Shown here: one piece after another, positions 26,062 to 64,000 of the stretch
Layout: the number at the start of each line of letters is the position of its first letter
Numbering within the stretch: the first letter of the stretch is position 1
Origin: Escherichia phage vB_EcoM_D4
DNA length: 64,000 nt
Sequence record: PP886228
Reading direction: 5' to 3' (one strand)
Notes under the pieces: generated by a model
Seen by the model: the letters and a program-made list of their open reading frames with translations, nothing else
Database searches by the model: none
What the model was told of the DNA's origin: nothing
Position numbers and translations under genes: made by a program

Positions 26062-26130
26062 TTGACAATGTACTTGACAAGGTGTTAATCTTTGCGAAGT
26101 GGGTTTTTACTTAAAAGGTTACTTAACAGT
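26062..26130 (+). promoter_or_regulatory. conserved element with tandem TTGACA boxes
   Basis: TTGACAatgtacTTGACAaggtg...; near-identical element at 61513-61580. Confidence 0.4.
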
Positions 26131-26197
26131 TTAACTATACAGATACTTTAAAACTCTTAAAAGATTATTTAATAGCTTTTAAAAAGCTTTAAAGTAT

Positions 26198-26214
26198 AAC
26201 GTATAGAATACGTT
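26198..26214. promoter_or_regulatory. perfect palindrome AACGTAT-aga-ATACGTT (operator-like)
   Basis: 7-bp inverted arms separated by 3 bp in the divergent region between polymerase and + block. Confidence 0.35.
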
Positions 26215-26258
26215 AAGATAAAAGATTAAAACTTAATAGTTACTTAAAAGAGGCTTAC

Positions 26259-26681
26259 ATGCAGAAAATGTTTGTTCACCCAGACATAGCTAACTTTGTT
26301 AGGGCTTTGCAGAAGTTGGAAGAACTTGACATTGCTGCTCAACGGGAATATGCTCACCATCACAGGAGAATGGTTGATATACAACATGAAATAGAGTTGT
26401 CTGAAAACTATGAAGATGACTTAAAATGCTCTGTATTTGAGCATATGAAAGATGTTGCTACAGCGAGACGTAAAGCTAAAGACACAGTTGCTTTACTAGA
26501 TTCTCTTAAAAAGAGGTTGCAAAGTGGTACAGACCTGTGTAATCTAGCGTCACTGATTAACGATGTTGAAACTTCTTGGGATAGACATTACTATCCACGT
26601 TCTGAAAAGACACTTGACTTTTCTTCATCAGAAAACTTAAAATGTTCTAGAAAGAAACTTAACCAACTGAGAGAGAAATAA
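26259..26681 (+). CDS. hypothetical protein
   Basis: 140-aa ORF, first gene of + block. Confidence 0.4.
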   Translation: MQKMFVHPDIANFVRALQKLEELDIAAQREYAHHHRRMVDIQHEIELSENYEDDLKCSVFEHMKDVATARRKAKDTVALLDSLKKRLQSGTDLCNLASLINDVETSWDRHYYPRSEKTLDFSSSENLKCSRKKLNQLREK

Positions 26682-56857: not shown

Positions 56858-56917
56858 TTGCATCAACGGGGGGCGATGACCTCCCAGCTAACTAACCTTA
56901 AACTAGGAGATTCAAAA

Positions 56918-57298
56918 ATGGCTTATCGTGCACCTAAATTCATCAACAAAGACAACTTTCGCAACGTACTGGAGAAGGCACTTGATGAAAAATTTAACGG
57001 TAAAATAATTGTTGTTCATGCGTTCAATTTCAAGTATGATATCAACGGGAATAAAATCAACCATTACACGGCAACCATGTTAGATGGTACGCTATCAAGT
57101 GAAAAAGCCGTACTGAATGCACTGGCAGGACGTGGTAAAAACCTGATAAAATGCGATAAGAGACGTTATCAGGGCGGCGCATATGGTTACGATGATGCTG
57201 TTTACCATCTTGAAAATATGGGCTATTCAGTGGAAAAAGCTGGAATATCTCAAATAATCGGCAGTGACGGCTATGTGACAATTTTCAAAATTAACTGA
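56918..57298 (+). CDS. array gene 1, hypothetical
   Basis: Start at ATG following conserved ctaggagattcaaaaATG; 126 aa. Confidence 0.45.
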   Translation: MAYRAPKFINKDNFRNVLEKALDEKFNGKIIVVHAFNFKYDINGNKINHYTATMLDGTLSSEKAVLNALAGRGKNLIKCDKRRYQGGAYGYDDAVYHLENMGYSVEKAGISQIIGSDGYVTIFKIN

Positions 57299-57306
57299 TA
57301 AAGTAC

Positions 57307-57341
57307 TTTACAAGGGGCTTATAGTTCGATAAAGTAAGCCC
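57307..57341 (+). promoter_or_regulatory. class-B promoter/hairpin module
   Basis: TTTACA, 17-bp spacer, TAAAGT; palindrome ggggctta...taagcccc spans spacer and -10. Confidence 0.45.
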
Positions 57342-57386
57342 CAGATAAAGAGCTTTACCACTAAATCCTAAATTGGAGATTCTAAA

Positions 57387-57644
57387 ATGGCTATTATCAA
57401 AAACGTTGTAATTACTGCAAAAACTCGTGATGACGCTCGCATTATGGCTAAAAAGTTATGCGGGAAAGTGATTGACAACGGAAAAAAATCTGCTGTAAGA
57501 TGGGGCGTGAAAGCTGATAAGCAACTAACCTTAAAACGTAATTCAAGCAACCTTTTTAAAGGTGTGGAAACACTTGGTAAAGTGAACGTATTCACTAAGC
57601 AAGGTTATAAAATGCACTTATCATTAACTGGTAAATTAATCTGA
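57387..57644 (+). CDS. array gene 2, small basic protein
   Basis: 85 aa after conserved RBS. Confidence 0.45.
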   Translation: MAIIKNVVITAKTRDDARIMAKKLCGKVIDNGKKSAVRWGVKADKQLTLKRNSSNLFKGVETLGKVNVFTKQGYKMHLSLTGKLI

Positions 57645-57652
57645 TAAAGTAC

Positions 57653-57687
57653 TTTACAAGGGGCTTAAAAGCTGATATCTTAAGCCC
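57653..57687 (+). promoter_or_regulatory. class-B promoter/hairpin module
   Basis: TTTACA, 17 bp, TATCTT; palindrome ggggcttaa...ttaagcccc. Confidence 0.45.
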
Positions 57688-57734
57688 CAGATAAAGAGCT
57701 TTACTACATTAACCTTAAACTAGGAGATTCAAAA

Positions 57735-58247
57735 ATGAAAACTGTAGACGCTACCTTTGAAGTTGTAAAAGAAAAATTTTCCATCATTTACGAAGCTGTT
57801 AACTGCTACGAAGCAAGCCATAGCCTTGATAATTGGAAATTTACAGATAATCATCAAGGTGGCGTGACTATTAAAAACCCCAACTATCGTTATAATGCTT
57901 TTAAATATGCAATCCCTTTACATTACAGCCTTAAACAGCTTTCGAGTGACTATGCAAAACAAGGCCGGGAAAACCCTTCAAAAGAGGCTTATATCAGCTT
58001 ACAAAGAGAACTAGAAAGGGATTTAGAGGCTTCAGCATATAATATTGCCGCGAAAGTTGTGGATGCAAACGGTAAAACGGTTTTAGAAAGTTTTTATACT
58101 GGTTACGCTTTTGATTGGGCATACAGTGACGGCGAAGATTTAGAGGATAGACTAAAAGAGGAGGTGAGCAATTCAGGCGCAGAATCTGAAGTATTAGAAC
58201 GCTTGGAAGCATTAAAAGATTCAGTGATGAATATCTTTAAGAACTAA
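57735..58247 (+). CDS. array gene 3, hypothetical
   Basis: 170 aa. Confidence 0.45.
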   Translation: MKTVDATFEVVKEKFSIIYEAVNCYEASHSLDNWKFTDNHQGGVTIKNPNYRYNAFKYAIPLHYSLKQLSSDYAKQGRENPSKEAYISLQRELERDLEASAYNIAAKVVDANGKTVLESFYTGYAFDWAYSDGEDLEDRLKEEVSNSGAESEVLERLEALKDSVMNIFKN

Positions 58248-58256
58248 ATAGATTTC

Positions 58257-58290
58257 TTTACACGGGGCTATCAAGCTGATAAGATAGCCC
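58257..58290 (+). promoter_or_regulatory. class-B promoter/hairpin module
   Basis: TTTACA, 17 bp, TAAGAT; palindrome ggggctatc...gatagcccc (compensatory arm changes). Confidence 0.45.
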
Positions 58291-58336
58291 CAGATAAAGA
58301 GCTTTATTAACTAACCTTAAACTAGGAGACTCAAAA

Positions 58337-58633
58337 ATGAAATTATCAAATAAAGTTAGGGAAAATCTAAGCAAGTTACTCAACAAAATTGATTTTATCG
58401 AGACATCAAGGAATAGTCATGATGTTATGGAATGGTTACACGGAAAAATCAAAGGCCGTCGTGTAGTGATTTGCTTATGGAATAGTTGCAGGGAATATAA
58501 AAAACCTGTATTACAAGTCAATATCTATGATGATACTTTTAAAAGCCATGTAAAGTCTAAAAGTGATTTATTAGAATCCTATGAGATAACTGTAAATGGC
58601 AAAGTATCACGTAAAGAGGAAACACCATGTTAA
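58337..58633 (+). CDS. array gene 4, hypothetical
   Basis: 98 aa. Confidence 0.45.
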   Translation: MKLSNKVRENLSKLLNKIDFIETSRNSHDVMEWLHGKIKGRRVVICLWNSCREYKKPVLQVNIYDDTFKSHVKSKSDLLESYEITVNGKVSRKEETPC

Positions 58634-58959
58634 TGACTGGTATCACTGCAATCATTGCCATTTTCGCGCTATATAAGGCATATAAAGCCTATAATCTAGC
58701 AAATAAGGCAATCACACAGCAGGTTAGCAATAGCCTTGTAGAAAGCTTTCTAGGGCGTCTCAGTGATGAGCAAATAAAGCGGTTAGAAATGAGCTTCAGA
58801 TTTCAATCGAGAACTTATCAAATCAGCGACATTTTCAAAGATGATTTTCAGCTTGTCGATGATTATAACTCCCTGATAAATGCTTTAAATATCAGTGACT
58901 TAAAAGACTATTACGCTGTAATTGTCCAAGAATTGAGCAAACGAAAAAATTTATCTTGA
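58627..58959 (+). CDS. array gene 5, membrane-anchored protein
   Basis: N-terminal TM helix GITAIIAIFALY; overlaps previous gene, no own promoter. Confidence 0.4.
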   Translation: MLMTGITAIIAIFALYKAYKAYNLANKAITQQVSNSLVESFLGRLSDEQIKRLEMSFRFQSRTYQISDIFKDDFQLVDDYNSLINALNISDLKDYYAVIVQELSKRKNLS

Positions 58960-59012
58960 TTTTGGTTTTTAAAACAAGTAAATTACTAATCAACGGGGAG
59001 GGAATGACCTTC
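58956..59012 (+). promoter_or_regulatory. class-A promoter plus leader hairpin
   Basis: TTGATT, 17 bp, TAAATT, then atcaacggggaggg aatgac cttcccc. Confidence 0.5.
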
Positions 59013-59050
59013 CCCCACTAAATAAAGTCCTTAAACTAGGAGATTCAAAA

Positions 59051-59323
59051 ATGTATACTACTAACAATGGTCGCACTTTAAACGTAACCCTGCGCCACTA
59101 TGTGAACGGTGTAATGCACTTCGAGGATTTACAAGCTGAACAACATATACTAGATTGGCAACTTGCAGGACTCCAAAAAACTGCTACCGGATACGGGAAA
59201 AAGATTCCAACTAGCTGGAAAGTATACTACGAAGGACGTTTGCGCAGAATTTATCAAGATGTATGCAGCAATAGCGCATCAAGTTACATCATGGTAAAAG
59301 GTGAAAAATTACACTTAGCATAA
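59051..59323 (+). CDS. array gene 6, hypothetical
   Basis: 90 aa. Confidence 0.45.
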   Translation: MYTTNNGRTLNVTLRHYVNGVMHFEDLQAEQHILDWQLAGLQKTATGYGKKIPTSWKVYYEGRLRRIYQDVCSNSASSYIMVKGEKLHLA

Positions 59324-59328
59324 AGTAC

Positions 59329-59363
59329 TTTACAAGGGGCTTATAGTTCGATAAAGTAAGCCC
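59329..59363 (+). promoter_or_regulatory. class-B promoter/hairpin module
   Basis: Identical to module at 57307. Confidence 0.45.
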
Positions 59364-59408
59364 CAGATAAAGAGCTTTATCACTCAATCCTAAATTGGAG
59401 ATTCTAAA

Positions 59409-59813
59409 ATGGCTATTAATAATCGTGAGTTATCAATCTTAAAAGCACGTTTGACCGTTAACCGGATTAATGTTATTACATCATCAGCACCTGATGAGAC
59501 ATTGCACAACATTATCGGGAAGATTCAAAGTGTTATCTTAGACGTTGAAAGCGTAAAAAACTCACTGGCTGACGTTGCAGCAGGTATCACGCTAGACGGT
59601 GCACAATATGAAATGGCTGACATGTTAGGCAAATCTAAGGTAATGAATAAAGAGCTTGATTTAAAAATGTTCCGCTTTGCCGTGAAAGTGTGGCTATCTG
59701 TCGAGTATGACGCAAATTTTGCAATCGCTGACTTTTTCGCAACATGGTTGCAACGTAATTTAACAAATCATGATTTTCGTGATATCTGCGACGTAATTTA
59801 CGCAGAACTTTAA
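59409..59813 (+). CDS. array gene 7, hypothetical
   Basis: 134 aa. Confidence 0.45.
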   Translation: MAINNRELSILKARLTVNRINVITSSAPDETLHNIIGKIQSVILDVESVKNSLADVAAGITLDGAQYEMADMLGKSKVMNKELDLKMFRFAVKVWLSVEYDANFAIADFFATWLQRNLTNHDFRDICDVIYAEL

Positions 59814-59824
59814 AAATTTCTCTT

Positions 59825-59881
59825 GATTTTGGTTTTTAAAACAAGTAAATTATTAATCAACGGGGAGGGAATGACCTTCCC
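59825..59881 (+). promoter_or_regulatory. class-A promoter plus leader hairpin
   Basis: Identical to module at 58956. Confidence 0.5.
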
Positions 59882-59916
59882 CACTAAGTAAAGTCCTTAA
59901 ACTAGGAGATTCAAAA

Positions 59917-60120
59917 ATGGCTATTATTAACGGCTTAAACATTGAAACTACTCACATCAAAGATATCAAAGTTGGTGATATAGTCCTTTTTCACGGCGTA
60001 GAAAAAACCGTCACTGAAAAGGATATCAAGGAGGATTCATTCATGGGCCGGACTCTCTTCGGTGATTCCTATTGCTTAGGTTACCTTGCAGTTTTAAAAG
60101 TTGTCAAAAATAACCGTTAA
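59917..60120 (+). CDS. array gene 8, hypothetical
   Basis: 67 aa. Confidence 0.4.
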   Translation: MAIINGLNIETTHIKDIKVGDIVLFHGVEKTVTEKDIKEDSFMGRTLFGDSYCLGYLAVLKVVKNNR

Positions 60121-60124
60121 AGTA

Positions 60125-60159
60125 CTTTACAAGGGGCTTATAGTTCGATAAAGTAAGCC
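60125..60159 (+). promoter_or_regulatory. class-B promoter/hairpin module
   Basis: Identical to module at 57307. Confidence 0.45.
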
Positions 60160-60206
60160 CCAGATAAAGAGCTTTACCACATTAATCCTAAACTGGAGAT
60201 TCAAAA

Positions 60207-60749
60207 ATGAAATGCTTTCACGGTACTACTCAAGAAAACTTCGTCAACCTGATTAATAACGGTGATAAACCATCAGGCGCATGGAATTGTTCGGATATGG
60301 ATGGCAATTTTTACGTTTATCCAGAAAATAAAATCTATGGCGACGATGAGGAAGAAATAATCTCTGAAGGCATTCAACAAGCTTTAGGTAATGCCACTAT
60401 AACGGCAGCTTTTCAGATGAAAACTCAAAACATTGTTATCTTGGAACTTGATATTCCAGAAGATGAGTTGAATGATGATTATTCTTGTGATAATATGTCG
60501 AGTGTGGCAAGTTTTACAGAGTATTTTGATATAAGCTGGATTAAAAAGGTTTATATCACTGAATTTAATGCTATGTTTTCACCTTTTTGTCTTCCTTCAC
60601 TGGATAACCCGAACTTAAACTATCTTGATGAGTCTCTGGAACTTCTCGCTAAAAGTGTTCAGCAATCGGACAGTATTCAGGTTTTTTGTGACATCATGGA
60701 TACACTAACAGGAAACATTGCAGAAGAGGATTTGAAGAGTTTTTTCTAA
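60207..60749 (+). CDS. array gene 9, acidic protein
   Basis: 180 aa, Asp/Glu-rich throughout. Confidence 0.45.
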   Translation: MKCFHGTTQENFVNLINNGDKPSGAWNCSDMDGNFYVYPENKIYGDDEEEIISEGIQQALGNATITAAFQMKTQNIVILELDIPEDELNDDYSCDNMSSVASFTEYFDISWIKKVYITEFNAMFSPFCLPSLDNPNLNYLDESLELLAKSVQQSDSIQVFCDIMDTLTGNIAEEDLKSFF

Positions 60750-60781
60750 AAACCTATGCAATCACCTTATAAACACTGATT

Positions 60782-60801
60782 AGCCCCTCACAGGGGCTTT
60801 T
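60782..60801 (+). terminator. terminator-like hairpin
   Basis: agcccctc acaggggct then TTT, followed by aggagg RBS. Confidence 0.4.
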
Positions 60802-60815
60802 AGGAGGCTTTAATC

Positions 60816-61049
60816 ATGCTTACAACCATTTACCTCATCCTTTCTATCTGTAATGGTCATTCGTGTGACTTTAAAGGGCTTGAAGAGTTTACAGGAAGTA
60901 AAGAAAATGCTATTCAAGTGTGCCAGATAGCAAGGCAAGACTATCCCGCCAGTGATGATATACAATGTTACTTTAAGACAGAAGATGAAGACGGTGTCTA
61001 TTTTGACAGCGTAGACGGTCAATATGAAATTATCATTGAAAAAGACTAG
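60816..61049 (+). CDS. array gene 10, hypothetical
   Basis: 77 aa, hydrophobic N-terminus. Confidence 0.4.
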   Translation: MLTTIYLILSICNGHSCDFKGLEEFTGSKENAIQVCQIARQDYPASDDIQCYFKTEDEDGVYFDSVDGQYEIIIEKD

Positions 61050-61067
61050 ACAAGCCTGATAAAAGTC

Positions 61068-61100
61068 TGTAAATTGTCAATCAACGGGAGGTAATAACCT
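61068..61100 (+). promoter_or_regulatory. class-A -10 and leader hairpin
   Basis: TAAATT then atcaacgggagg taataa cctcccc; -35 weak. Confidence 0.4.
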
Positions 61101-61138
61101 CCCCACTAAGTAAAGTCCTTAAACTAGGAGATTCAAAA

Positions 61139-61480
61139 ATGGCTTATGTAACCGTAATTACCGACAAAGCTGGCTCATCTTGGTCAACTCAAGTAAGCGA
61201 TAAGATGTCACCTATGAAGTGCCTAAAATACTTTGAGCAATGGAACAAAGGCGAGGATGTCAGCCCCTTTCAAGTGATGCAGATTATCCATACAGATAAC
61301 GAAGGGAATAAAACTGTTTTGAATAGTGAGTACTACGCAACCCGATTTGAAACGAGATGTAAAGCAATGAAGCTTTTGCGTGAGTCTGGTTATTCTCATA
61401 TTGCCTCACTAATCTGGGATGACCTGCTAAAAAATCAGCGTATCAGCTATGTAAAACCTGAAAAAATATTCATCAGTTAA
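61139..61480 (+). CDS. array gene 11, hypothetical
   Basis: 113 aa. Confidence 0.45.
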   Translation: MAYVTVITDKAGSSWSTQVSDKMSPMKCLKYFEQWNKGEDVSPFQVMQIIHTDNEGNKTVLNSEYYATRFETRCKAMKLLRESGYSHIASLIWDDLLKNQRISYVKPEKIFIS

Positions 61481-61512
61481 TCAACAACTTACAAAAAACT
61501 TTTAAAAAGATG

Positions 61513-61580
61513 TTGACAATCCCTCTTGACATTGGTAACTTTGTTCGAGGGGGTTTATCTAAAAGGGATTAACTTAAAAG
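61513..61580 (+). promoter_or_regulatory. conserved element with tandem TTGACA boxes (second copy)
   Basis: TTGACAatccctcTTGACAttggtaactttgttcgaggggg; aligns with 26062-26130. Confidence 0.4.
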
Positions 61581-61608
61581 ATTCTTTATAGATAAACTTA
61601 AAAAATTG

Positions 61609-61668
61609 CTTGCAATCAACTATCAAAACAAGTAAATTACTAATCAACGGGAGGGATAACCCCCCCCC
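61609..61668 (+). promoter_or_regulatory. class-A promoter plus leader hairpin with poly-C
   Basis: TTGCAA, 17 bp, TAAATT, atcaacgggaggg ataa cccccccc. Confidence 0.5.
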
Positions 61669-61815
61669 ACTAAATAAAGTCCTTAAACTAGGAGATTCAA
61701 AAAATGAACAAGTTCAAAGCTATCAACTTCATTCGTTCCCCCCCCACTAAATAAAGTCCTTAAACTAGGAGATTCAAAAAATGAACAAGTTCAAAGCTAT
61801 CAACTTCATTCGTTC
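61661..61815 (+). repeat. tandem duplication (78 + 77 bp) of leader-RBS-start codon segment
   Basis: Segment from poly-C tract through ...atgaacaagttcaaagctatcaacttcattcgttc occurs twice back to back; copies differ by one C. Confidence 0.8.
61704..61754 (+). pseudogene. truncated 16-codon duplicate of array gene 12 start
   Basis: MNKFKAINFIRSPPTK then stop; created by the duplication. Confidence 0.5.
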
Positions 61816-62311
61816 AAATAGTGTTATGTCAAAGCCTGTTAAAGATACCTATGAATTTCGTTGCAATGGGGTGCATTTTGCAACCATTACCAAATCAGAA
61901 AACGGAGCTTATTACATCCATCGCCGTAATGTTGCAACCGTTGTTGTCTCTCACTTTATGCAAGCTGTCGCGGAACTTCTCCCGATGTTTTTAGGGCTTT
62001 ACTTGGATGAGTGTAAAAACGTTCACAATCACGTTAAAAACCTTTTAAACAGTTATAAAATGGCTTATGAACGTTCTATCAAGTCCTTAAACAAGTTTTA
62101 CAACGCACCTAAAAATACTGTATCAATGGCCTACGATGTAAATGGTGAGGCGGTGAGTCTCTTTGAAGTGGAAGAAATCAAGCTGCATGATTTACGCCCT
62201 AGCGGTGACTCTAAGACTCTCGGTGAAGGTTTAACGTTCAATATCAAGAACTTAGAGAAAACTTTAAAAGATATTGAAAAAGATATTGACGAGACAACCA
62301 AAAATCTGTAA
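61781..62311 (+). CDS. array gene 12, hypothetical
   Basis: 176 aa. Confidence 0.45.
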   Translation: MNKFKAINFIRSNSVMSKPVKDTYEFRCNGVHFATITKSENGAYYIHRRNVATVVVSHFMQAVAELLPMFLGLYLDECKNVHNHVKNLLNSYKMAYERSIKSLNKFYNAPKNTVSMAYDVNGEAVSLFEVEEIKLHDLRPSGDSKTLGEGLTFNIKNLEKTLKDIEKDIDETTKNL

Positions 62312-62345
62312 ATTGTCAATCAACGGGAGGGAATGACCTTCCCCA
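62286..62345 (+). promoter_or_regulatory. class-A promoter plus leader hairpin
   Basis: TTGACG, 17 bp, TAAATT inside the 3' end of gene 12, then atcaacgggaggg aatgac cttcccc. Confidence 0.45.
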
Positions 62346-62376
62346 CTAAGTAAAGTCCTAAACTGGAGTTATCAAG

Positions 62377-62640
62377 ATGGAAAACGTAGAATTAACCGCA
62401 CTATTGCAGATTGCAACTGATAAAGAGGATGTAGCACTGTTCCACCGCATTGAAAGCGATTTGTTCAATGGTGAAATCATTAAAGAATCTTACGAAGTTG
62501 TCGGATTCAAAGATGGTAAATCATTTGGATTCTTTGACCTCGACAAAGGCAAAGCGGTTACAAAATATGATGTTTTATCTTGTGAGATTCTGACAAAATA
62601 CAACGAAAAAAGGCTTGCAACATACGACAACATGCAGTAA
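62377..62640 (+). CDS. array gene 13, hypothetical
   Basis: 87 aa. Confidence 0.45.
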   Translation: MENVELTALLQIATDKEDVALFHRIESDLFNGEIIKESYEVVGFKDGKSFGFFDLDKGKAVTKYDVLSCEILTKYNEKRLATYDNMQ

Positions 62641-62672
62641 ATTACTAATCAACGGGGAGGGATAACCTCCCC
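62615..62672 (+). promoter_or_regulatory. class-A promoter plus leader hairpin
   Basis: TTGCAA, 17 bp, TAAATT, atcaacggggaggg ataa cctcccc. Confidence 0.5.
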
Positions 62673-62706
62673 ACTAAGTAAAGTCCTTAAACTAGGAGAT
62701 TCAAAA

Positions 62707-62955
62707 ATGGCAACTATCCGCGCAACTGTCAATGCTTATGGCTGTTATACTCTGGACGTTAAATTTGATATTGGTGGAACTGATGAGTGTTTTTCATTAG
62801 TGAAGACAGTTATCAAGCAAGTTATCCCAGATTATAACCCTACTGATGACTTCTGGAAAGATGCTGTAAAAGAGGCATTAAACGACGAGCATCACTATCA
62901 TTACTGGGGTGACTTGATTATCTCACTGTACTACAATAAACAAGGTTACAACTAA
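62707..62955 (+). CDS. array gene 14, hypothetical
   Basis: 82 aa. Confidence 0.45.
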   Translation: MATIRATVNAYGCYTLDVKFDIGGTDECFSLVKTVIKQVIPDYNPTDDFWKDAVKEALNDEHHYHYWGDLIISLYYNKQGYN

Positions 62956-62965
62956 TCGCCGCAAC

Positions 62966-63017
62966 GGGGCTAAATAGCCCCAGATACCTTCACAGCCCCA
63001 TTTAAGGGGCTTTTTTA
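62966..63017 (+). terminator. double hairpin terminator closing the array
   Basis: ggggctaaatagcccc then agcccca ttt aaggggct followed by TTTTTT. Confidence 0.6.
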
Positions 63018-63369
63018 CGTCTATGTAATAGCCTCTATACAATCCCTTTCCTTTCCTTTCCAGAATCTTACTAGACCTTAAAAGCAATAACTCTATAGTC
63101 TACTCTATAATCTCTTATCAAATCAACTTAAATAAAAGCCCATAACCCGAAAGGGAAGGGTAACCGTTTAAACGCTCTATAAAGCTCTATAACAGCCTTA
63201 TCAACCTAACTTAAGGGATTGCATTAACTCACCCTAAAAAGCCCTTTATAAAGCTTCCTAGAGCCTTAAAAGAATCTTATAAGGGTGTAAGCTTTATTAT
63301 CTCGTTAGTTCCTTGTGAATAACTAGAAAGGGCTTGTTAGTGTCTTAAAAGTATGTTATAGGGGCTATA

Positions 63370-63413
63370 AAGTTACTTCAAAGTTACGTAAAAGTGGTTT
63401 AAAAGTTACGTAA
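63370..63413. repeat. repeated palindromic GTTACGTAA motif
   Basis: aagttac x3, with two full copies of aagttacgtaaa 22 bp apart. Confidence 0.5.
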
Positions 63414-63433
63414 ATGCTAGCCCCCTTAACATT

Positions 63434-63515
63434 TTCTTAACAATTTCTTAACAACCCCTACATAGTTATGCTTGTTAGCAACTTGTTAGCCCCTTGTTAA
63501 ATCTCTGTTAAAACC
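63434..63515. repeat. convergent TGTTAAG-family iterons
   Basis: ttcttaaca x2 (inverted orientation) facing cttgttagc, cttgttagc, cttgttaaa, ctgttaaaa. Confidence 0.55.
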
Positions 63516-63715
63516 ACGTAAAAGCCTTGTAAGAGTCTTTAGCATAGCCTTTAAAGCCCCTGTAAAGCCCTATAAATAGCTTTCTGTATAGTTGGGGTGT
63601 AATTACTAGGGAGAGACTAAAAAGAGCTTATAAGGAGCTATAGAAAGCTTTTAAGAGGGCTATTTAAAAGGTCACTAAGAAAGGAAAGGGAACGATAAGA
63701 AAAGAGATAGTGACC

Positions 63716-64000
63716 ATGTTAATAGCTTGTTAAAAAGATTAAACACTTGTTAGGAACTTGTTAATTATCTTAACAAAATAACTCTTTAAAATTAACTTGT
63801 TAGCTCTTGTTAGTCATCTGTTAAGATTCTATAAAGACCATGTAGCAACTGTTAAGAAACTGTTACACCCTTGTTAGTTCTGTTAAGAATCTGTTAAGAC
63901 CTCTGAAGAGATGTTAAGAGGTTGTAAGAACTGTTAAGAGATTGTTAAGGATATTTTAAAATTCTGCAAAGGGGATGTTACAGGGATGTTAAGGGCTACC
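63716..64000 (+). repeat. direct iteron array, consensus YTGTTAAG at about 10-11 bp spacing (runs to window end)
   Basis: About 20 copies: cttgttag, cttgttaat, tctgttaag, actgttaag, gatgttaag, attgttaag, gatgttac ... Confidence 0.7.

What the first reader, a model, noticed from the sequence alone, without database searches (positions are those of the whole stretch)
63040..63700. Inverted CTTTC-triplet repeats and palindromic GTTACGTAA boxes bracketing the proximal non-coding region
CCTTTCCTTTCCTTTCC at 63046-63062 is mirrored by GAAAGGAAAGGGAA at 63679-63692 about 630 bp away (a shorter GAAAGGGAAGGG at 63150). Between them are CTATAAAG-type boxes (63172-63188, 63245, 63364, 63580 as TATAAATA, 63828) and two copies of the palindrome-containing AAGTTACGTAAA (63380, 63402). 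Inverted repeats bounding a block of short boxes could delimit a regulatory or recombination unit; TATAAATA matches the late-promoter consensus of T4-type phages, which may be coincidental in AT-rich DNA.
Basis: seen in the sequence. Interest (0 to 1): 0.4.

Follow-up and report, generated by a model that had tools for sequence, protein, structure and literature searches.

The report
Terminal-repeat boundary of Felix O1-like phage

Summary
The window is a Felixounavirus genome, identical over its last 2.26 kb to phage vB_EcoM_I14.1, and it ends at that record's end. Window 63420-64000 is the 581-bp direct terminal repeat (DTR). Its ends fall within 8 nt and 2 nt of the termini mapped by experiment in phage UAB_Phi87, and match DTRs recorded for a Mooglevirus and an Erwinia Kolesnikvirus.

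The finding therefore straddles the junction between unique sequence and the DTR, inside a 1.67-kb gene-free region between convergent, terminator-capped gene clusters.

- **Real signal:** arrays of short boxes spaced 11 nt apart. TGTTA occurs 30 times against 2.7 expected, 21 of them in the DTR. Box columns are more conserved than spacers, and larger indels are most often 11 nt, with further multiples of 11.
- **GTTACGTAA boxes:** part of an 11-nt array of variable copy number that ends 12 nt before the left boundary.
- **CTTTC/GAAAGG pair:** a perfect 13-nt inverted repeat here only; 5-10 nt in relatives, with the left arm absent in some.
- **TATAAATA:** not conserved.

Most likely this is the concatemer-junction and packaging-cleavage region, analogous to the T7 terminal repeat with its CCTAAAG arrays. 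The DTR is already known; the box architecture appears undescribed in the papers searched.

The parts
62966..62981 (+). Conserved hairpin GGGGCT-AAAT-AGCCCC, just after the stop codon of the last + strand gene (62707-62955).
   Evidence: Seen in the sequence. Nearly invariant in 11 genomes, and among the most conserved 30-nt blocks.
62994..63017 (+). Intrinsic terminator that closes the rightward small-gene cluster: stem AGCCCC/GGGGCT followed by a T run.
   Evidence: Terminator scan. Annotated as a terminator in AYO145A and Mordin. Conserved in the alignment.
63043..63061 (.). The 13-nt perfect arm is 63043-63055.
   Evidence: Poorly conserved: degenerate in Felix O1, and absent in Mordin, Sf14, Sf18 and GEC_vB_B1.
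63033..63191 (+). CTCTATA(A/G) boxes in the left unique flank, at 63033, 63091, 63103, 63175 and 63185. These are 5 of the 7 copies in the whole 64-kb window.
   Evidence: The blocks AACTCTATAG..ACTCTATA and AAACGCTCTATA are invariant in 11 genomes.
63149..63160 (+). GAAAGGGAAGGG, within CCCGAAAGGGAAGGG. It is conserved, but its role is unknown.
   Evidence: Conserved in 10 of 11 genomes. No folding signal.
63369..63414 (+). Tandem array with an 11-nt unit, AAAGTTACGTA (4.2 copies). It holds the two GTTACGTAA palindrome boxes and ends 12 nt before the terminal-repeat boundary.
   Evidence: Tandem Repeats Finder. The number of TTACGTAA boxes varies from 1 (fjerdesal, heid) to 6 (GEC_vB_B1). The last copy is essentially invariant.
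63418..63432 (+). Left boundary motif TAGCCCCCTTAACAT. The terminal repeat starts at 63420 by the I14.1 and HP1 records, and at 63428 by the UAB_Phi87 experiment.
   Evidence: The pattern TAGCCC(N0-3)TT[AT]ACA occurs once per strand in the window plus the junction, at the two boundaries only. It lies in a highly conserved block.
63420..64000 (.). Right-hand copy of the 581-bp direct terminal repeat. Window position 64000 is the physical right end of the genome record.
   Evidence: I14.1 record positions 1-581 equal 88779-89359 at 100% identity, and the window's last 2263 nt are identical to that record's end. The published UAB_Phi87 DTR sequence agrees. At least nine independent records start or end at the same homologous positions.
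63425..63454 (-). Three CTTAACA boxes 11 nt apart. These are TGTTAAG read on the - strand, so they are oriented toward the left boundary.
   Evidence: Invariant in 11 genomes. Phage heid has one extra 11-nt unit.
63471..63510 (+). Four C(T)TGTTA(G/A) boxes at exactly 11-nt spacing.
   Evidence: Relatives gain or lose whole 11-nt units here.
63571..63578 (+). TATAAATA, the match to the T4 late-promoter consensus. It is a coincidental variant of a CTATAAA(G/A) box.
   Evidence: Relatives read TATAAAAA or TATAAAGA.
63679..63692 (+). It lies inside the terminal repeat.
   Evidence: Only AGGGAAC is invariant, and the complementarity to the left arm is not maintained in relatives.
63717..63991 (+). 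Seventeen TGTTA(A/G) boxes oriented toward the right boundary. Spacings are mostly 11 nt, with others of 9-39 nt.
   Evidence: There are 17 TGTTA[AG] sites in 63501-64000, against a mean of 0.95 and a maximum of 5 per 500 nt elsewhere in the window. Box columns are more conserved than spacers.
63987..64000 (-). Right boundary motif TGTTAAGGGCTACC, whose reverse complement contains TAGCCCTTAACA. It is followed in the concatemer form by the invariant AAGCAGATATACA.
   Evidence: The block 63987-64016 has 0.97 column identity. The M7 repeat ends at the homologous position.

Best explanation
The finding lies on the right-hand end of a Felixounavirus (Felix O1-like myovirus) genome, at the junction between unique sequence and the short direct terminal repeat.

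**Shown**
- Window 63420-64000 is the 581-bp terminal repeat, and the window ends at the physical genome end.
- The repeat sits in a 1.67-kb gene-free region between two convergent, terminator-capped gene clusters.
- The region carries conserved arrays of short boxes spaced about one helical turn (11 nt) apart: CTCTATA and AAAGTTACGTA in the left unique flank, and about 25 TGTTA(A/G) boxes in the repeat. A few boxes at the left edge read toward the left boundary, and most of the rest read toward the right boundary.
- The two repeat boundaries are among the most conserved blocks and carry one composite motif, TAGCCC..TTAACA, in inverted orientation.

**Inferred**
- In replicating concatemers this region is the genome-to-genome junction.
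- The phased boxes let a phage protein, most plausibly the terminase small subunit or holoenzyme, bind along one face of the helix.
- Cleavage or nicking follows at the two boundary motifs. The repeat is then duplicated by strand-displacement synthesis, so each packaged genome carries a copy at both ends, as in the T7-type model.
- The CTTTC/GAAAGG inverted repeat and the TATAAATA match have no demonstrated role and are probably incidental.

My confidence is about 0.9 that this is the terminal-repeat junction, and about 0.4-0.45 that the boxes are packaging or terminase recognition elements specifically.
For: **Identity of the phage.** 256 phage records match, almost all Felixounavirus or other Ounavirinae. 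The best is vB_EcoM_I14.1 at 99.1%, with the match running to its last base.

**The terminal repeat.**
- I14.1 positions 1-581 equal 88779-89359 at 100% identity. The window's last 2263 nt are identical to the I14.1 end.
- The authors of I14.1 report PhageTerm-derived direct terminal repeats (PMC11737134).
- Bal31 digestion plus run-off sequencing gave a 608-bp DTR in UAB_Phi87 (PMC4837284). Its printed sequence starts at the homologue of window 63428 and ends 2 nt past 64000.
- vB_EcoM-Ro111lw, reported by its authors with a 613-bp repeat from PhageTerm, has a similar size (PMC6454146); I did not check its genus.
- Records H12, CRP22, E9, ZX4221, ECP2307, pEP20, GE_vB_7A, SPJ41 and HP1 start or end at the same homologous base.
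- Erwinia phage M7 has a 444-bp exact repeat with homologous boundaries.

**Context.** Convergent genes and terminators lie on both sides.

**The boxes.**
- TGTTA occurs 30 times on the + strand and 6 on the - strand, against 2.7 expected; CTTGTTA is enriched 70-fold.
- The modal spacing is 11 nt, and the autocorrelation peak is at lag 11 (0.46 against a mean of 0.28).
- The density is unique within the 64-kb window.
- TGTTA columns have 0.92 identity against 0.81 for spacers (p = 4e-6). The commonest indel longer than 3 nt is 11 nt, and 22, 33, 55, 66 and 77 nt also occur alongside non-multiples such as 23, 24 and 27 nt.
- Each of 11 genomes keeps 19-21 forward and 3-5 reverse boxes in the repeat.
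- The boundary motif is unique on each strand.

**Precedent.** T7 has CCTAAAG-type boxes inside its terminal repeat and in an array just beyond it, mostly at 13-nt spacing.
Against: - No experiment links the boxes to terminase or to packaging in any Ounavirinae phage. No paper I could search describes them.
- No DNA-binding protein was identified. All ten flanking genes are of unknown function, and the terminase genes lie outside the window.
- Phased direct repeats next to an invariant AT-rich block are equally typical of an iteron-type replication origin.
- The positions of the termini relative to the inverted boundary motif are not symmetric. They fall 2 to 10 nt inside the motif on the left and 2 to 4 nt outside it on the right.
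- Several termini rest on record boundaries or PhageTerm calls rather than on reads I could examine.
- In Mordin and Sf18 both boundary motifs changed TTAA to TTTA on the same strand. That is not what a strictly symmetric recognition site predicts.
Confidence: 0.6

Rival explanations
1. The box arrays are iterons of the phage replication origin. A phage or host initiator binds the phased repeats and opens the adjacent AT-rich block. The overlap with the terminal repeat is secondary, or the two functions coexist.
For: - Dense, helically phased direct repeats, with copy-number changes in whole units.
- An invariant AT-rich block, CTATTTTATAAAAATTTTAAAATTCTGAAT, lies 70-100 nt beyond the repeat at 0.95 column identity.
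- The site sits where two transcription units converge, so it is free of coding constraint.
- The phage encodes its own DNA polymerase and primase-helicase.
Against: - No initiator protein was identified.
- There are several different box families rather than one iteron.
- The boxes are concentrated inside a repeat whose ends are the mapped DNA termini.
- From my own knowledge, not tested here: T7-type primase-helicase and polymerase systems are not known to use iteron origins.
- GC skew in the window follows gene orientation and shows no origin-like switch here.
Confidence: 0.2
2. The arrays bind a nucleoid-associated or phage end-binding protein. Its job would be bending or condensing DNA, protecting the ends from host exonucleases, or helping DNA entry, rather than terminase recognition.
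For: Spacing of about one helical turn puts the sites on one face of the helix, which is typical of wrapping or bending proteins. The arrays sit at both physical ends of the virion DNA. In Erwinia phage M7 the left flank uses a different box (TTCTAAG, also at 11-nt spacing where adjacent) while the overall layout is kept. That suggests co-evolution with a binding protein or a structural role.
Against: No candidate protein was found. The boxes match no host-factor consensus that I could recognise by eye (my own reading, not a computed test). This idea does not explain the conserved, unique boundary motifs.
Confidence: 0.1
3. One reading: a regulatory block of promoter-like boxes, including a T4-type late promoter TATAAATA, that controls neighbouring genes.
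For: Sigma-70-like matches number 11 against 5.2 +/- 1.9 in shuffles. T7 has a leftward E. coli promoter (A0) inside its equivalent repeat array.
Against: - Both neighbouring gene clusters are transcribed toward the region and end in terminators. No gene lies downstream of any putative promoter.
- TATAAATA is not conserved.
- Several of the promoter-like hits use a TTAACA hexamer, which is the reverse complement of the TGTTAA box.
- No Rfam RNA family matches.
- The Felix O1 paper found no evidence of altered RNA polymerase specificity (PMC3185647).
Confidence: 0.05
4. The CTTTC/GAAAGG inverted repeats are the ends of a discrete recombination or mobile unit of about 650 bp.
For: A perfect 13-nt inverted repeat, 63043-63055 against 63679-63691.
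Against: - Marginal against shuffles (fraction 0.077 at 12 nt).
- Complementarity drops to 5-10 nt in all ten relatives, and the left arm is deleted in several while the intervening sequence stays in place.
- The segment is present at the same locus in 256 related genomes with no presence/absence polymorphism.
- One arm is in unique DNA and the other is inside the terminal repeat.
Confidence: 0.03

Closest known systems
Direct terminal repeat of Felixounavirus phages (UAB_Phi87, 608 bp, mapped by Bal31 and run-off sequencing, Bardina et al. 2016, PMC4837284; I14.1 by PhageTerm)
   Same: Homologous sequence. The published UAB_Phi87 repeat aligns end to end with window 63428-64000 plus 2 nt. The I14.1 repeat is identical to window 63420-64000.
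   Different: Nothing essential; this is the same element in a close relative. The earlier papers report only its length and sequence. They do not describe the box arrays, the boundary motifs or the flanks.
Phage T7 concatemer junction: the 160-bp terminal repeat with CCTAAAG short-repeat arrays in and beside it
   Same: A short exact terminal repeat in a non-coding region. Many copies of a 7-8-nt box lie at near-constant spacing inside and just beyond the repeat (T7 positions 17-60 and 175-355, mostly 13 nt apart). Some Felix-type boxes (CTATAAAG, CTTAAAAG, CCTGTAAAG) even resemble CCTAAAG.
   Different: - No sequence homology overall. The dominant box is TGTTA(A/G) at 11-nt rather than 13-nt spacing.
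- The repeat is 3.6 times longer.
- The host phage is a myovirus without its own RNA polymerase, so the transcription-linked steps of T7/T3 packaging cannot apply.
- The flanking genes converge on the ends instead of starting from the left end.
- The statement that T7 arrays act in packaging comes from my memory of the literature, not from a test here.
Multi-box terminase recognition sites (P1 pac with 4+3 TGATCA/G hexamers around the cut; lambda cosB R sites; SPP1 pacL/pacR boxes)
   Same: Repeated short boxes flank a terminase cut site, some in opposite orientation on either side. This is what the inferred mechanism resembles.
   Different: Those phages use headful or cos packaging with a single cut region and far fewer boxes. 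Here two cut positions lie 581 bp apart with about 25 boxes between them. The comparison rests on my own knowledge of those systems and was not tested here.
Iteron-type replication origins (plasmid and lambda-type ori)
   Same: Helically phased direct repeats next to an AT-rich block.
   Different: There are several box families, no identified initiator, and the arrays coincide with the mapped genome termini.

Membership tests
Short exact direct terminal repeat (DTR) of Felixounavirus/Ounavirinae genomes | The same sequence is present at both ends of the linear genome. | tested here: met
   I14.1 record positions 1-581 equal 88779-89359 at 100%, and the window is identical to the I14.1 right end over 2263 nt. 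M7 has a 444-bp exact repeat at both ends. This is record-level evidence; I did not examine reads.
Short exact direct terminal repeat (DTR) of Felixounavirus/Ounavirinae genomes | The boundaries coincide with termini mapped by experiment in a relative. | tested here: met
   The UAB_Phi87 run-off sequence (PMC4837284, Fig. S1) starts 8 nt inside the left boundary and ends 2 nt beyond the right boundary used in I14.1. The M7 right end equals the UAB_Phi87 right end.
Short exact direct terminal repeat (DTR) of Felixounavirus/Ounavirinae genomes | Fixed, non-permuted ends in virion DNA. | not testable with these tools
   Literature only: Bal31 degraded two defined fragments in UAB_Phi87, and PhageTerm gave a DTR class for I14.1 and for Ro111lw.
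Short exact direct terminal repeat (DTR) of Felixounavirus/Ounavirinae genomes | The large terminase belongs to the DTR-generating clade. | not tested
   The terminase gene is outside the window: the large ORFs found are tail, replication, nucleotide-metabolism and rIIA genes. PMC4837284 reports that Felix O1-type terminases cluster as a DTR group.
T7-type terminal short-repeat arrays | Many copies of a short box at near-constant spacing, inside or directly beside the terminal repeat. | tested here: met
   TGTTA boxes with a modal spacing of 11 nt, 21 forward and 4 reverse in the repeat. T7 has CCTAAAG-type boxes mostly at 13-nt spacing.
T7-type terminal short-repeat arrays | Sequence relatedness to the T7 boxes or the T7 junction. 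| tested here: not met
   The dominant box and the spacing both differ, and the only non-Ounavirinae name among 256 matching phage records is one labelled Staphylococcus. This is an analogy, not membership.
T4-type late promoter (TATAAATA) | An exact TATAAATA, conserved, upstream of a gene. | tested here: not met
   There is a single copy at 63571. Relatives read TATAAAAA or TATAAAGA, and no gene lies downstream.
Iteron-type replication origin | Phased direct repeats plus an adjacent AT-rich unwinding element. | tested here: inconclusive
   Phased repeats are present. A conserved AT-rich block lies 70-100 nt beyond the window end in the concatemer form. These features are not specific to origins.
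Iteron-type replication origin | A cognate initiator protein encoded nearby. | tested here: not met
   The ten flanking proteins have no Pfam match and fall only in PHROGs families of unknown function. Absence of annotation is weak evidence.
Inverted-repeat-bounded mobile or recombination unit | Both inverted arms are conserved and the unit behaves as a block. | tested here: not met
   Arm complementarity is 13 nt here and 5-10 nt in relatives. The left arm is missing in 4 of 11 genomes while the interior is retained.

The most novel reading that the evidence does not exclude
The roughly 25 helically phased TGTTA boxes would form two divergently oriented arrays inside the terminal repeat. Each array would load terminase toward its nearer boundary motif (TAGCCC..TTAACA, inverted at the two ends). 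This would produce strand-specific nicks 581 bp apart, which are resolved by strand-displacement synthesis. That would be a sequence-level realisation of the Watson/T7 model of terminal-repeat duplication, and the first defined packaging-recognition layout for a short-DTR myovirus. The box families in the unique flanks (CTCTATA, AAAGTTACGTA; TTCTAAG in Erwinia phages) would act as lineage-specific accessory sites.
Probability: 0.3. Interest if true: 0.55.

Novelty: new member of a known kind. Interest (0 to 1): 0.3.

Why it matters
Felix O1-type phages are widely used for Salmonella diagnostics, biocontrol and therapy, and their genomes are deposited with arbitrary start points. Knowing that the 1.67-kb gene-free region is the genome end has three uses.

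- It gives a sequence rule for orienting and annotating these genomes: the motifs TAGCCCCCTTAACAT and TGTTAAGGGCTACC mark the repeat boundaries across at least Felixounavirus and Mooglevirus, with homologous boundaries in Kolesnikvirus.
- It defines the minimal candidate cis-element for engineering packageable plasmids or reporter phages.
- It offers a compact, comparative data set (box arrays that gain and lose whole 11-nt units) for studying how short terminal repeats are recognised and duplicated, which is poorly understood outside T7 and T3.

For the scan itself the lesson is negative. The motif pair that prompted the finding is incidental.

Tried and rejected
- **Cruciform or hairpin at the palindromes, the CTTTC run, the GAAAGGG element and the right boundary.** DNA folding gave z-scores from -0.4 to +1.3, so there is no signal.
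- **Known RNA family.** A permissive Rfam scan of 62600-64000 gave only one chance-level hit, on the terminator hairpin (E = 0.91).
- **Hidden protein gene.** The only ORF of 40 aa or more that touches the region is a 54-aa reverse-strand ORF across the terminator. Indels among relatives are 11, 22 and 23 nt, which does not preserve a reading frame.
- **T4-type late promoter.** Rejected by non-conservation.
- **Covariation between the CTTTC and GAAAGG arms.** Looked for across 11 genomes and not found.
- **Neighbouring genes as candidate box-binding proteins.** No Pfam match; only PHROGs families of unknown function.
- **UAB_Phi87 GenBank record (JN225449.1).** It is not opened at the termini, so it was not useful directly. 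The supplementary figure of the paper was used instead.
- **Literature searches.** Two searches were too broad and returned nothing relevant. The Felix O1 genome paper lists only direct repeats of 24 bp or more, located elsewhere, and does not mention this region. The PhageMaP paper on Bas63 gives no data on this region in the text I could read.
- **Host-factor sites.** I checked by eye for IHF and DnaA consensus sequences in the left flank and saw nothing convincing. This was not a computed test.
Full report
**1. What the window is**

The last 1.7 kb of the window matches 256 phage records. Almost all are Felixounavirus or other Ounavirinae, that is, Felix O1-like myoviruses of E. coli, Salmonella, Shigella and Citrobacter. 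The best match is Escherichia phage vB_EcoM_I14.1 (PP892526) at 99.1%, and the match runs to the very last base of that record.

A direct comparison shows that the window's last 2263 nt are 100% identical to the end of the I14.1 record. The large ORFs of the window encode tail proteins, DNA polymerase, primase-helicase, ribonucleotide reductases, NAMPT and rIIA. About 13 kb of small genes of unknown function follow, and they run rightward up to position 62955.

**2. Checking the observation**

There are two corrections. TATAAATA is at 63571, not 63580. The '63245' box reads TTTATAAAG rather than CTATAAAG.

The inverted pair is in fact a perfect 13-nt match: TCCCTTTCCTTTC at 63043 and GAAAGGAAAGGGA at 63679. 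Against 300 dinucleotide-preserving shuffles of 62956-64000 it is only marginal:

| Exact inverted pairs | Observed | Shuffle mean | Fraction of shuffles reaching observed |
|---|---|---|---|
| 12 nt | 2 | 0.35 | 0.077 |
| 11 nt | 4 | 1.58 | 0.14 |

The pair was not among the 25 longest of the 63 inverted pairs the repeat finder listed.

The region as a whole is far more repetitive than chance. Direct 9-mer pairs number 59 against 9.0 +/- 4.3, and inverted 9-mer pairs 35 against 10.4 +/- 4.5. No shuffle reached either value.

**3. What is really there: the genome end**

In the I14.1 record, positions 1-581 are identical to positions 88779-89359. That is a 581-bp direct terminal repeat (DTR), and it corresponds to window 63420-64000. 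[quoted passage not shown]

Independent experimental evidence exists for a relative. Bardina et al. (PMC4837284) used Bal31 digestion and run-off sequencing of UAB_Phi87 virion DNA and found a 608-bp DTR. The sequence printed in their Figure S1 starts AACATTTTCTTAACAA, which is the homologue of window 63428. It ends GGGATGTTAAGGGCTACCAA, which is window 64000 plus 2 nt.

Further support comes from other records and genera:
- At least nine other records from different laboratories start or end at exactly the homologous base: H12, CRP22, E9, ZX4221, ECP2307, pEP20, GE_vB_7A, SPJ41 and HP1.
- The Mooglevirus HP1 has an annotated 570-bp terminal repeat_region that begins GCCCCCTTAACAT and ends TGTTAAGGGCTACC.
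- Erwinia phage M7 (genus Kolesnikvirus) carries a 444-bp exact repeat at both ends of its record. It starts TTAGCCACTTTTACAT and ends GCGGCCACTAA, which is homologous to both boundaries.
- Repeat lengths predicted from the two boundary motifs in 11 genomes are 558-625 bp. This brackets the published values of 570, 581 and 608 bp, and the 613 bp reported for Ro111lw.

The finding (63040-63700) therefore straddles the junction between unique DNA and the right-hand terminal repeat, and the window stops at the physical end of the genome.

**4. Context**

Joining the window end to the I14.1 left end, minus one repeat copy, gives the concatemer form of the region. It is 1670 nt without a gene, and the equivalent stretch is 1599-1787 nt in ten relatives.

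The rightward gene cluster ends with a conserved hairpin at 62966-62981 and an intrinsic terminator at 62994-63017. The leftward cluster on the far side also ends with a terminator, which is annotated in AYO145A and Mordin. Both clusters are transcribed into the region, so it is not an upstream control region for either.

The ten nearest proteins have no Pfam match and fall only in PHROGs families of unknown function. There is no Rfam match. None of the palindromic or purine-rich elements shows a folding signal.

**5. The real repeat signal**

The dominant element is the pentamer TGTTA, usually within C(T)TGTTA(A/G).
- It occurs 30 times on the + strand and 6 times on the - strand in the 1670 nt, against 2.7 expected from the rest of the window. 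CTTGTTA is enriched 70-fold.
- The modal spacing is 11 nt, with other intervals ranging from 9 to 39 nt inside the arrays. Base autocorrelation inside the repeat peaks at lag 11, at 0.46 against a mean of 0.28.
- Counted on both strands, TGTTA[AG] reaches 17 and 7 per 500 nt in the last two bins of the window. The mean elsewhere is 0.95 and the maximum 5.
- Three boxes at the left edge of the repeat (63425-63454) are in reverse orientation. Nearly all the others, including 17 between 63717 and 63991, point toward the right boundary. In M7 the same divergent layout is more balanced, with 7 reverse boxes followed by 13 forward ones.

The unique flanks carry other phased boxes:
- CTCTATA: 5 of the 7 copies in the whole window lie at 63033-63191.
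- The 11-nt unit AAAGTTACGTA, at 63369-63414.
- CTATATAG-type boxes lie beyond the right boundary.

**6. Conservation**

I aligned 11 genomes from Felixounavirus and Mooglevirus. Mean column identity is 0.84 in the repeat and 0.78-0.84 in the unique flanks. Against AYO145A the last 2.26 kb, coding and non-coding together, is about 92% identical.

Inside the repeat, TGTTA columns are more conserved than the rest, 0.92 against 0.81 (Mann-Whitney p = 4e-6). The per-position profile rises exactly over T-G-T-T-A. The boxes were defined on the reference sequence, which may bias this comparison slightly.

Indels longer than 3 nt are most often 11 nt, and 22, 33, 55, 66 and 77 nt also occur, alongside non-multiples such as 23, 24 and 27 nt. 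Whole units are therefore often gained and lost. Examples are an extra CTTAACA unit in heid, a missing CTTGTTAGCCC unit in Felix O1, and one to six TTACGTAA boxes. Every genome keeps 19-21 forward and 3-5 reverse boxes in the repeat.

The two boundaries lie in highly conserved blocks: 63402-63431 at 0.94 and 63987-64016 at 0.97. They share one composite motif in inverted orientation. It reads TAGCCCCCTTAACAT on the + strand at 63418. At 63987 the + strand reads TGTTAAGGGCTA, whose reverse complement is TAGCCCTTAACA. The pattern TAGCCC(N0-3)TT[AT]ACA occurs exactly once on each strand in the whole window plus junction, at these two places.

**7.

- **Left CCTTTCC run.** It is degenerate in Felix O1 and absent in Mordin, Sf14, Sf18 and GEC_vB_B1. 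Its complementarity to the right arm falls from 13 nt here to 5-10 nt in all relatives, with no compensatory pattern.
- **Position of the arms.** One arm lies about 375 nt outside the repeat and the other about 260 nt inside it, so they do not bracket any defined unit.
- **GAAAGGGAAGGG at 63149.** It is conserved in 10 of 11 genomes, but its role is unknown.
- **TATAAATA.** It is unique to this phage; relatives read TATAAAAA or TATAAAGA.
- **GTTACGTAA boxes.** These are real and conserved, as the last units of an 11-nt array that ends 12 nt before the left boundary.

**8. Most likely mechanism**

Shown: the terminal repeat and its boundaries, the convergent gene-free context, and the conserved phased box arrays and boundary motifs.

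Inferred: in replicating concatemers this region is the junction between successive genomes. The phased boxes would let a protein bind repeatedly along one face of the helix, and terminase is the most economical candidate. The enzyme would then cut or nick at the two boundary motifs. Strand-displacement synthesis would duplicate the repeat so that both daughter ends carry it, as proposed for T7 (my own knowledge of that model, not tested here).

The T7 record shows the same kind of layout. CCTAAAG boxes lie inside the 160-bp repeat and in an array just beyond it, mostly 13 nt apart.

I put about 0.9 on the junction identity and about 0.4-0.45 on the packaging role of the boxes. The main rival is an iteron-type origin, at about 0.2. 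It is favoured by an invariant AT-rich block 70-100 nt past the repeat but lacks an initiator. Other rivals are a structural or end-binding protein array (about 0.1), a promoter cluster (about 0.05) and an inverted-repeat-bounded mobile unit (about 0.03).

**9. Comparison with what is known, and novelty**

The terminal repeat of this genus is already published (PMC4837284; see also PMC3185647, which inferred short terminal repeats for Felix O1). I found no description of the following in the papers I could search:
- the box arrays;
- their 11-nt phasing and unit-wise evolution;
- the inverted boundary motif;
- the conservation of this layout across three genera.

Some GenBank records merely flag anonymous 'repeat_region' features here. 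I therefore rate it a new member of a known kind: a short-DTR concatemer junction with terminal short-repeat arrays. It is of modest interest (0.3). The specific feature that triggered the finding is best regarded as incidental.

Noticed in passing
window 56862-62711 (copies at about 56862, 58977, 59844, 61069, 61631, 61739, 62308 and 62636; shorter 3' parts at 57713, 58315 and 60186): A roughly 75-nt intergenic module is repeated at 84-100% identity between the small rightward genes. It consists of a hairpin, GGGGAGGGATAACCTCCCC, followed by AAGTCCTTAAACTAGGAGATTCAAAAATG, which carries the ribosome-binding site and the start codon. The window differs from I14.1 by one 77-nt copy of it near 61738.
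   Followed up: partly
L013 (Shigella phage Tf) 1741 and 2392; L003 (heid) 5583; L008 (PC79-13) 2362; also in the published UAB_Phi87 repeat; absent from the window: A 22-23-nt palindromic insertion, (T/C)TAATTGGTATTGTTACCAATCCC, sits at different positions of the junction region in different relatives, twice in Tf. It looks like a tiny hairpin-forming insertion element that is spreading within this region.
   Followed up: partly
window 26090-26270: A cluster of CTTAAAAG, ACTTAAAAG and CTTTAAAG boxes lies in the AT-rich divergent intergenic region beside the DNA polymerase gene, where GC skew changes sign. The box type is the same as in the terminal region. It may be a promoter or origin-like region.
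   Followed up: no
PP892526.1 (L004/L005): The GenBank taxonomy line of vB_EcoM_I14.1 reads Demerecviridae; Tequintavirus. Yet its 89-kb sequence is a Felixounavirus, and the authors' paper calls it one. The label was probably swapped with its sister phage I14, which came from the same library.
   Followed up: partly
concatemer form, 70-100 nt and about 135-165 nt beyond window position 64000 (L005 about 650-680 and 717-746): Two blocks in the right unique flank are almost or fully invariant across two genera. One is the AT-rich CTATTTTATAAAAATTTTAAAATTCTGAAT. The other is AACAGGCTTATAAGATACCTTGTTAGTACC, at 100% column identity. Their function is unknown; they are candidates for an unwinding element or a protein site.
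   Followed up: no
L018 (Erwinia phage M7) about 83800-84130: The left unique flank of the M7 terminal repeat carries about 15 copies of a different box, (C/T)TTCTAA(G/A), spaced 11 nt where adjacent. It takes the place of the CTCTATA and CTTAAAAG boxes of Felix-type phages. The layout is conserved while the box sequence is replaced.
   Followed up: partly
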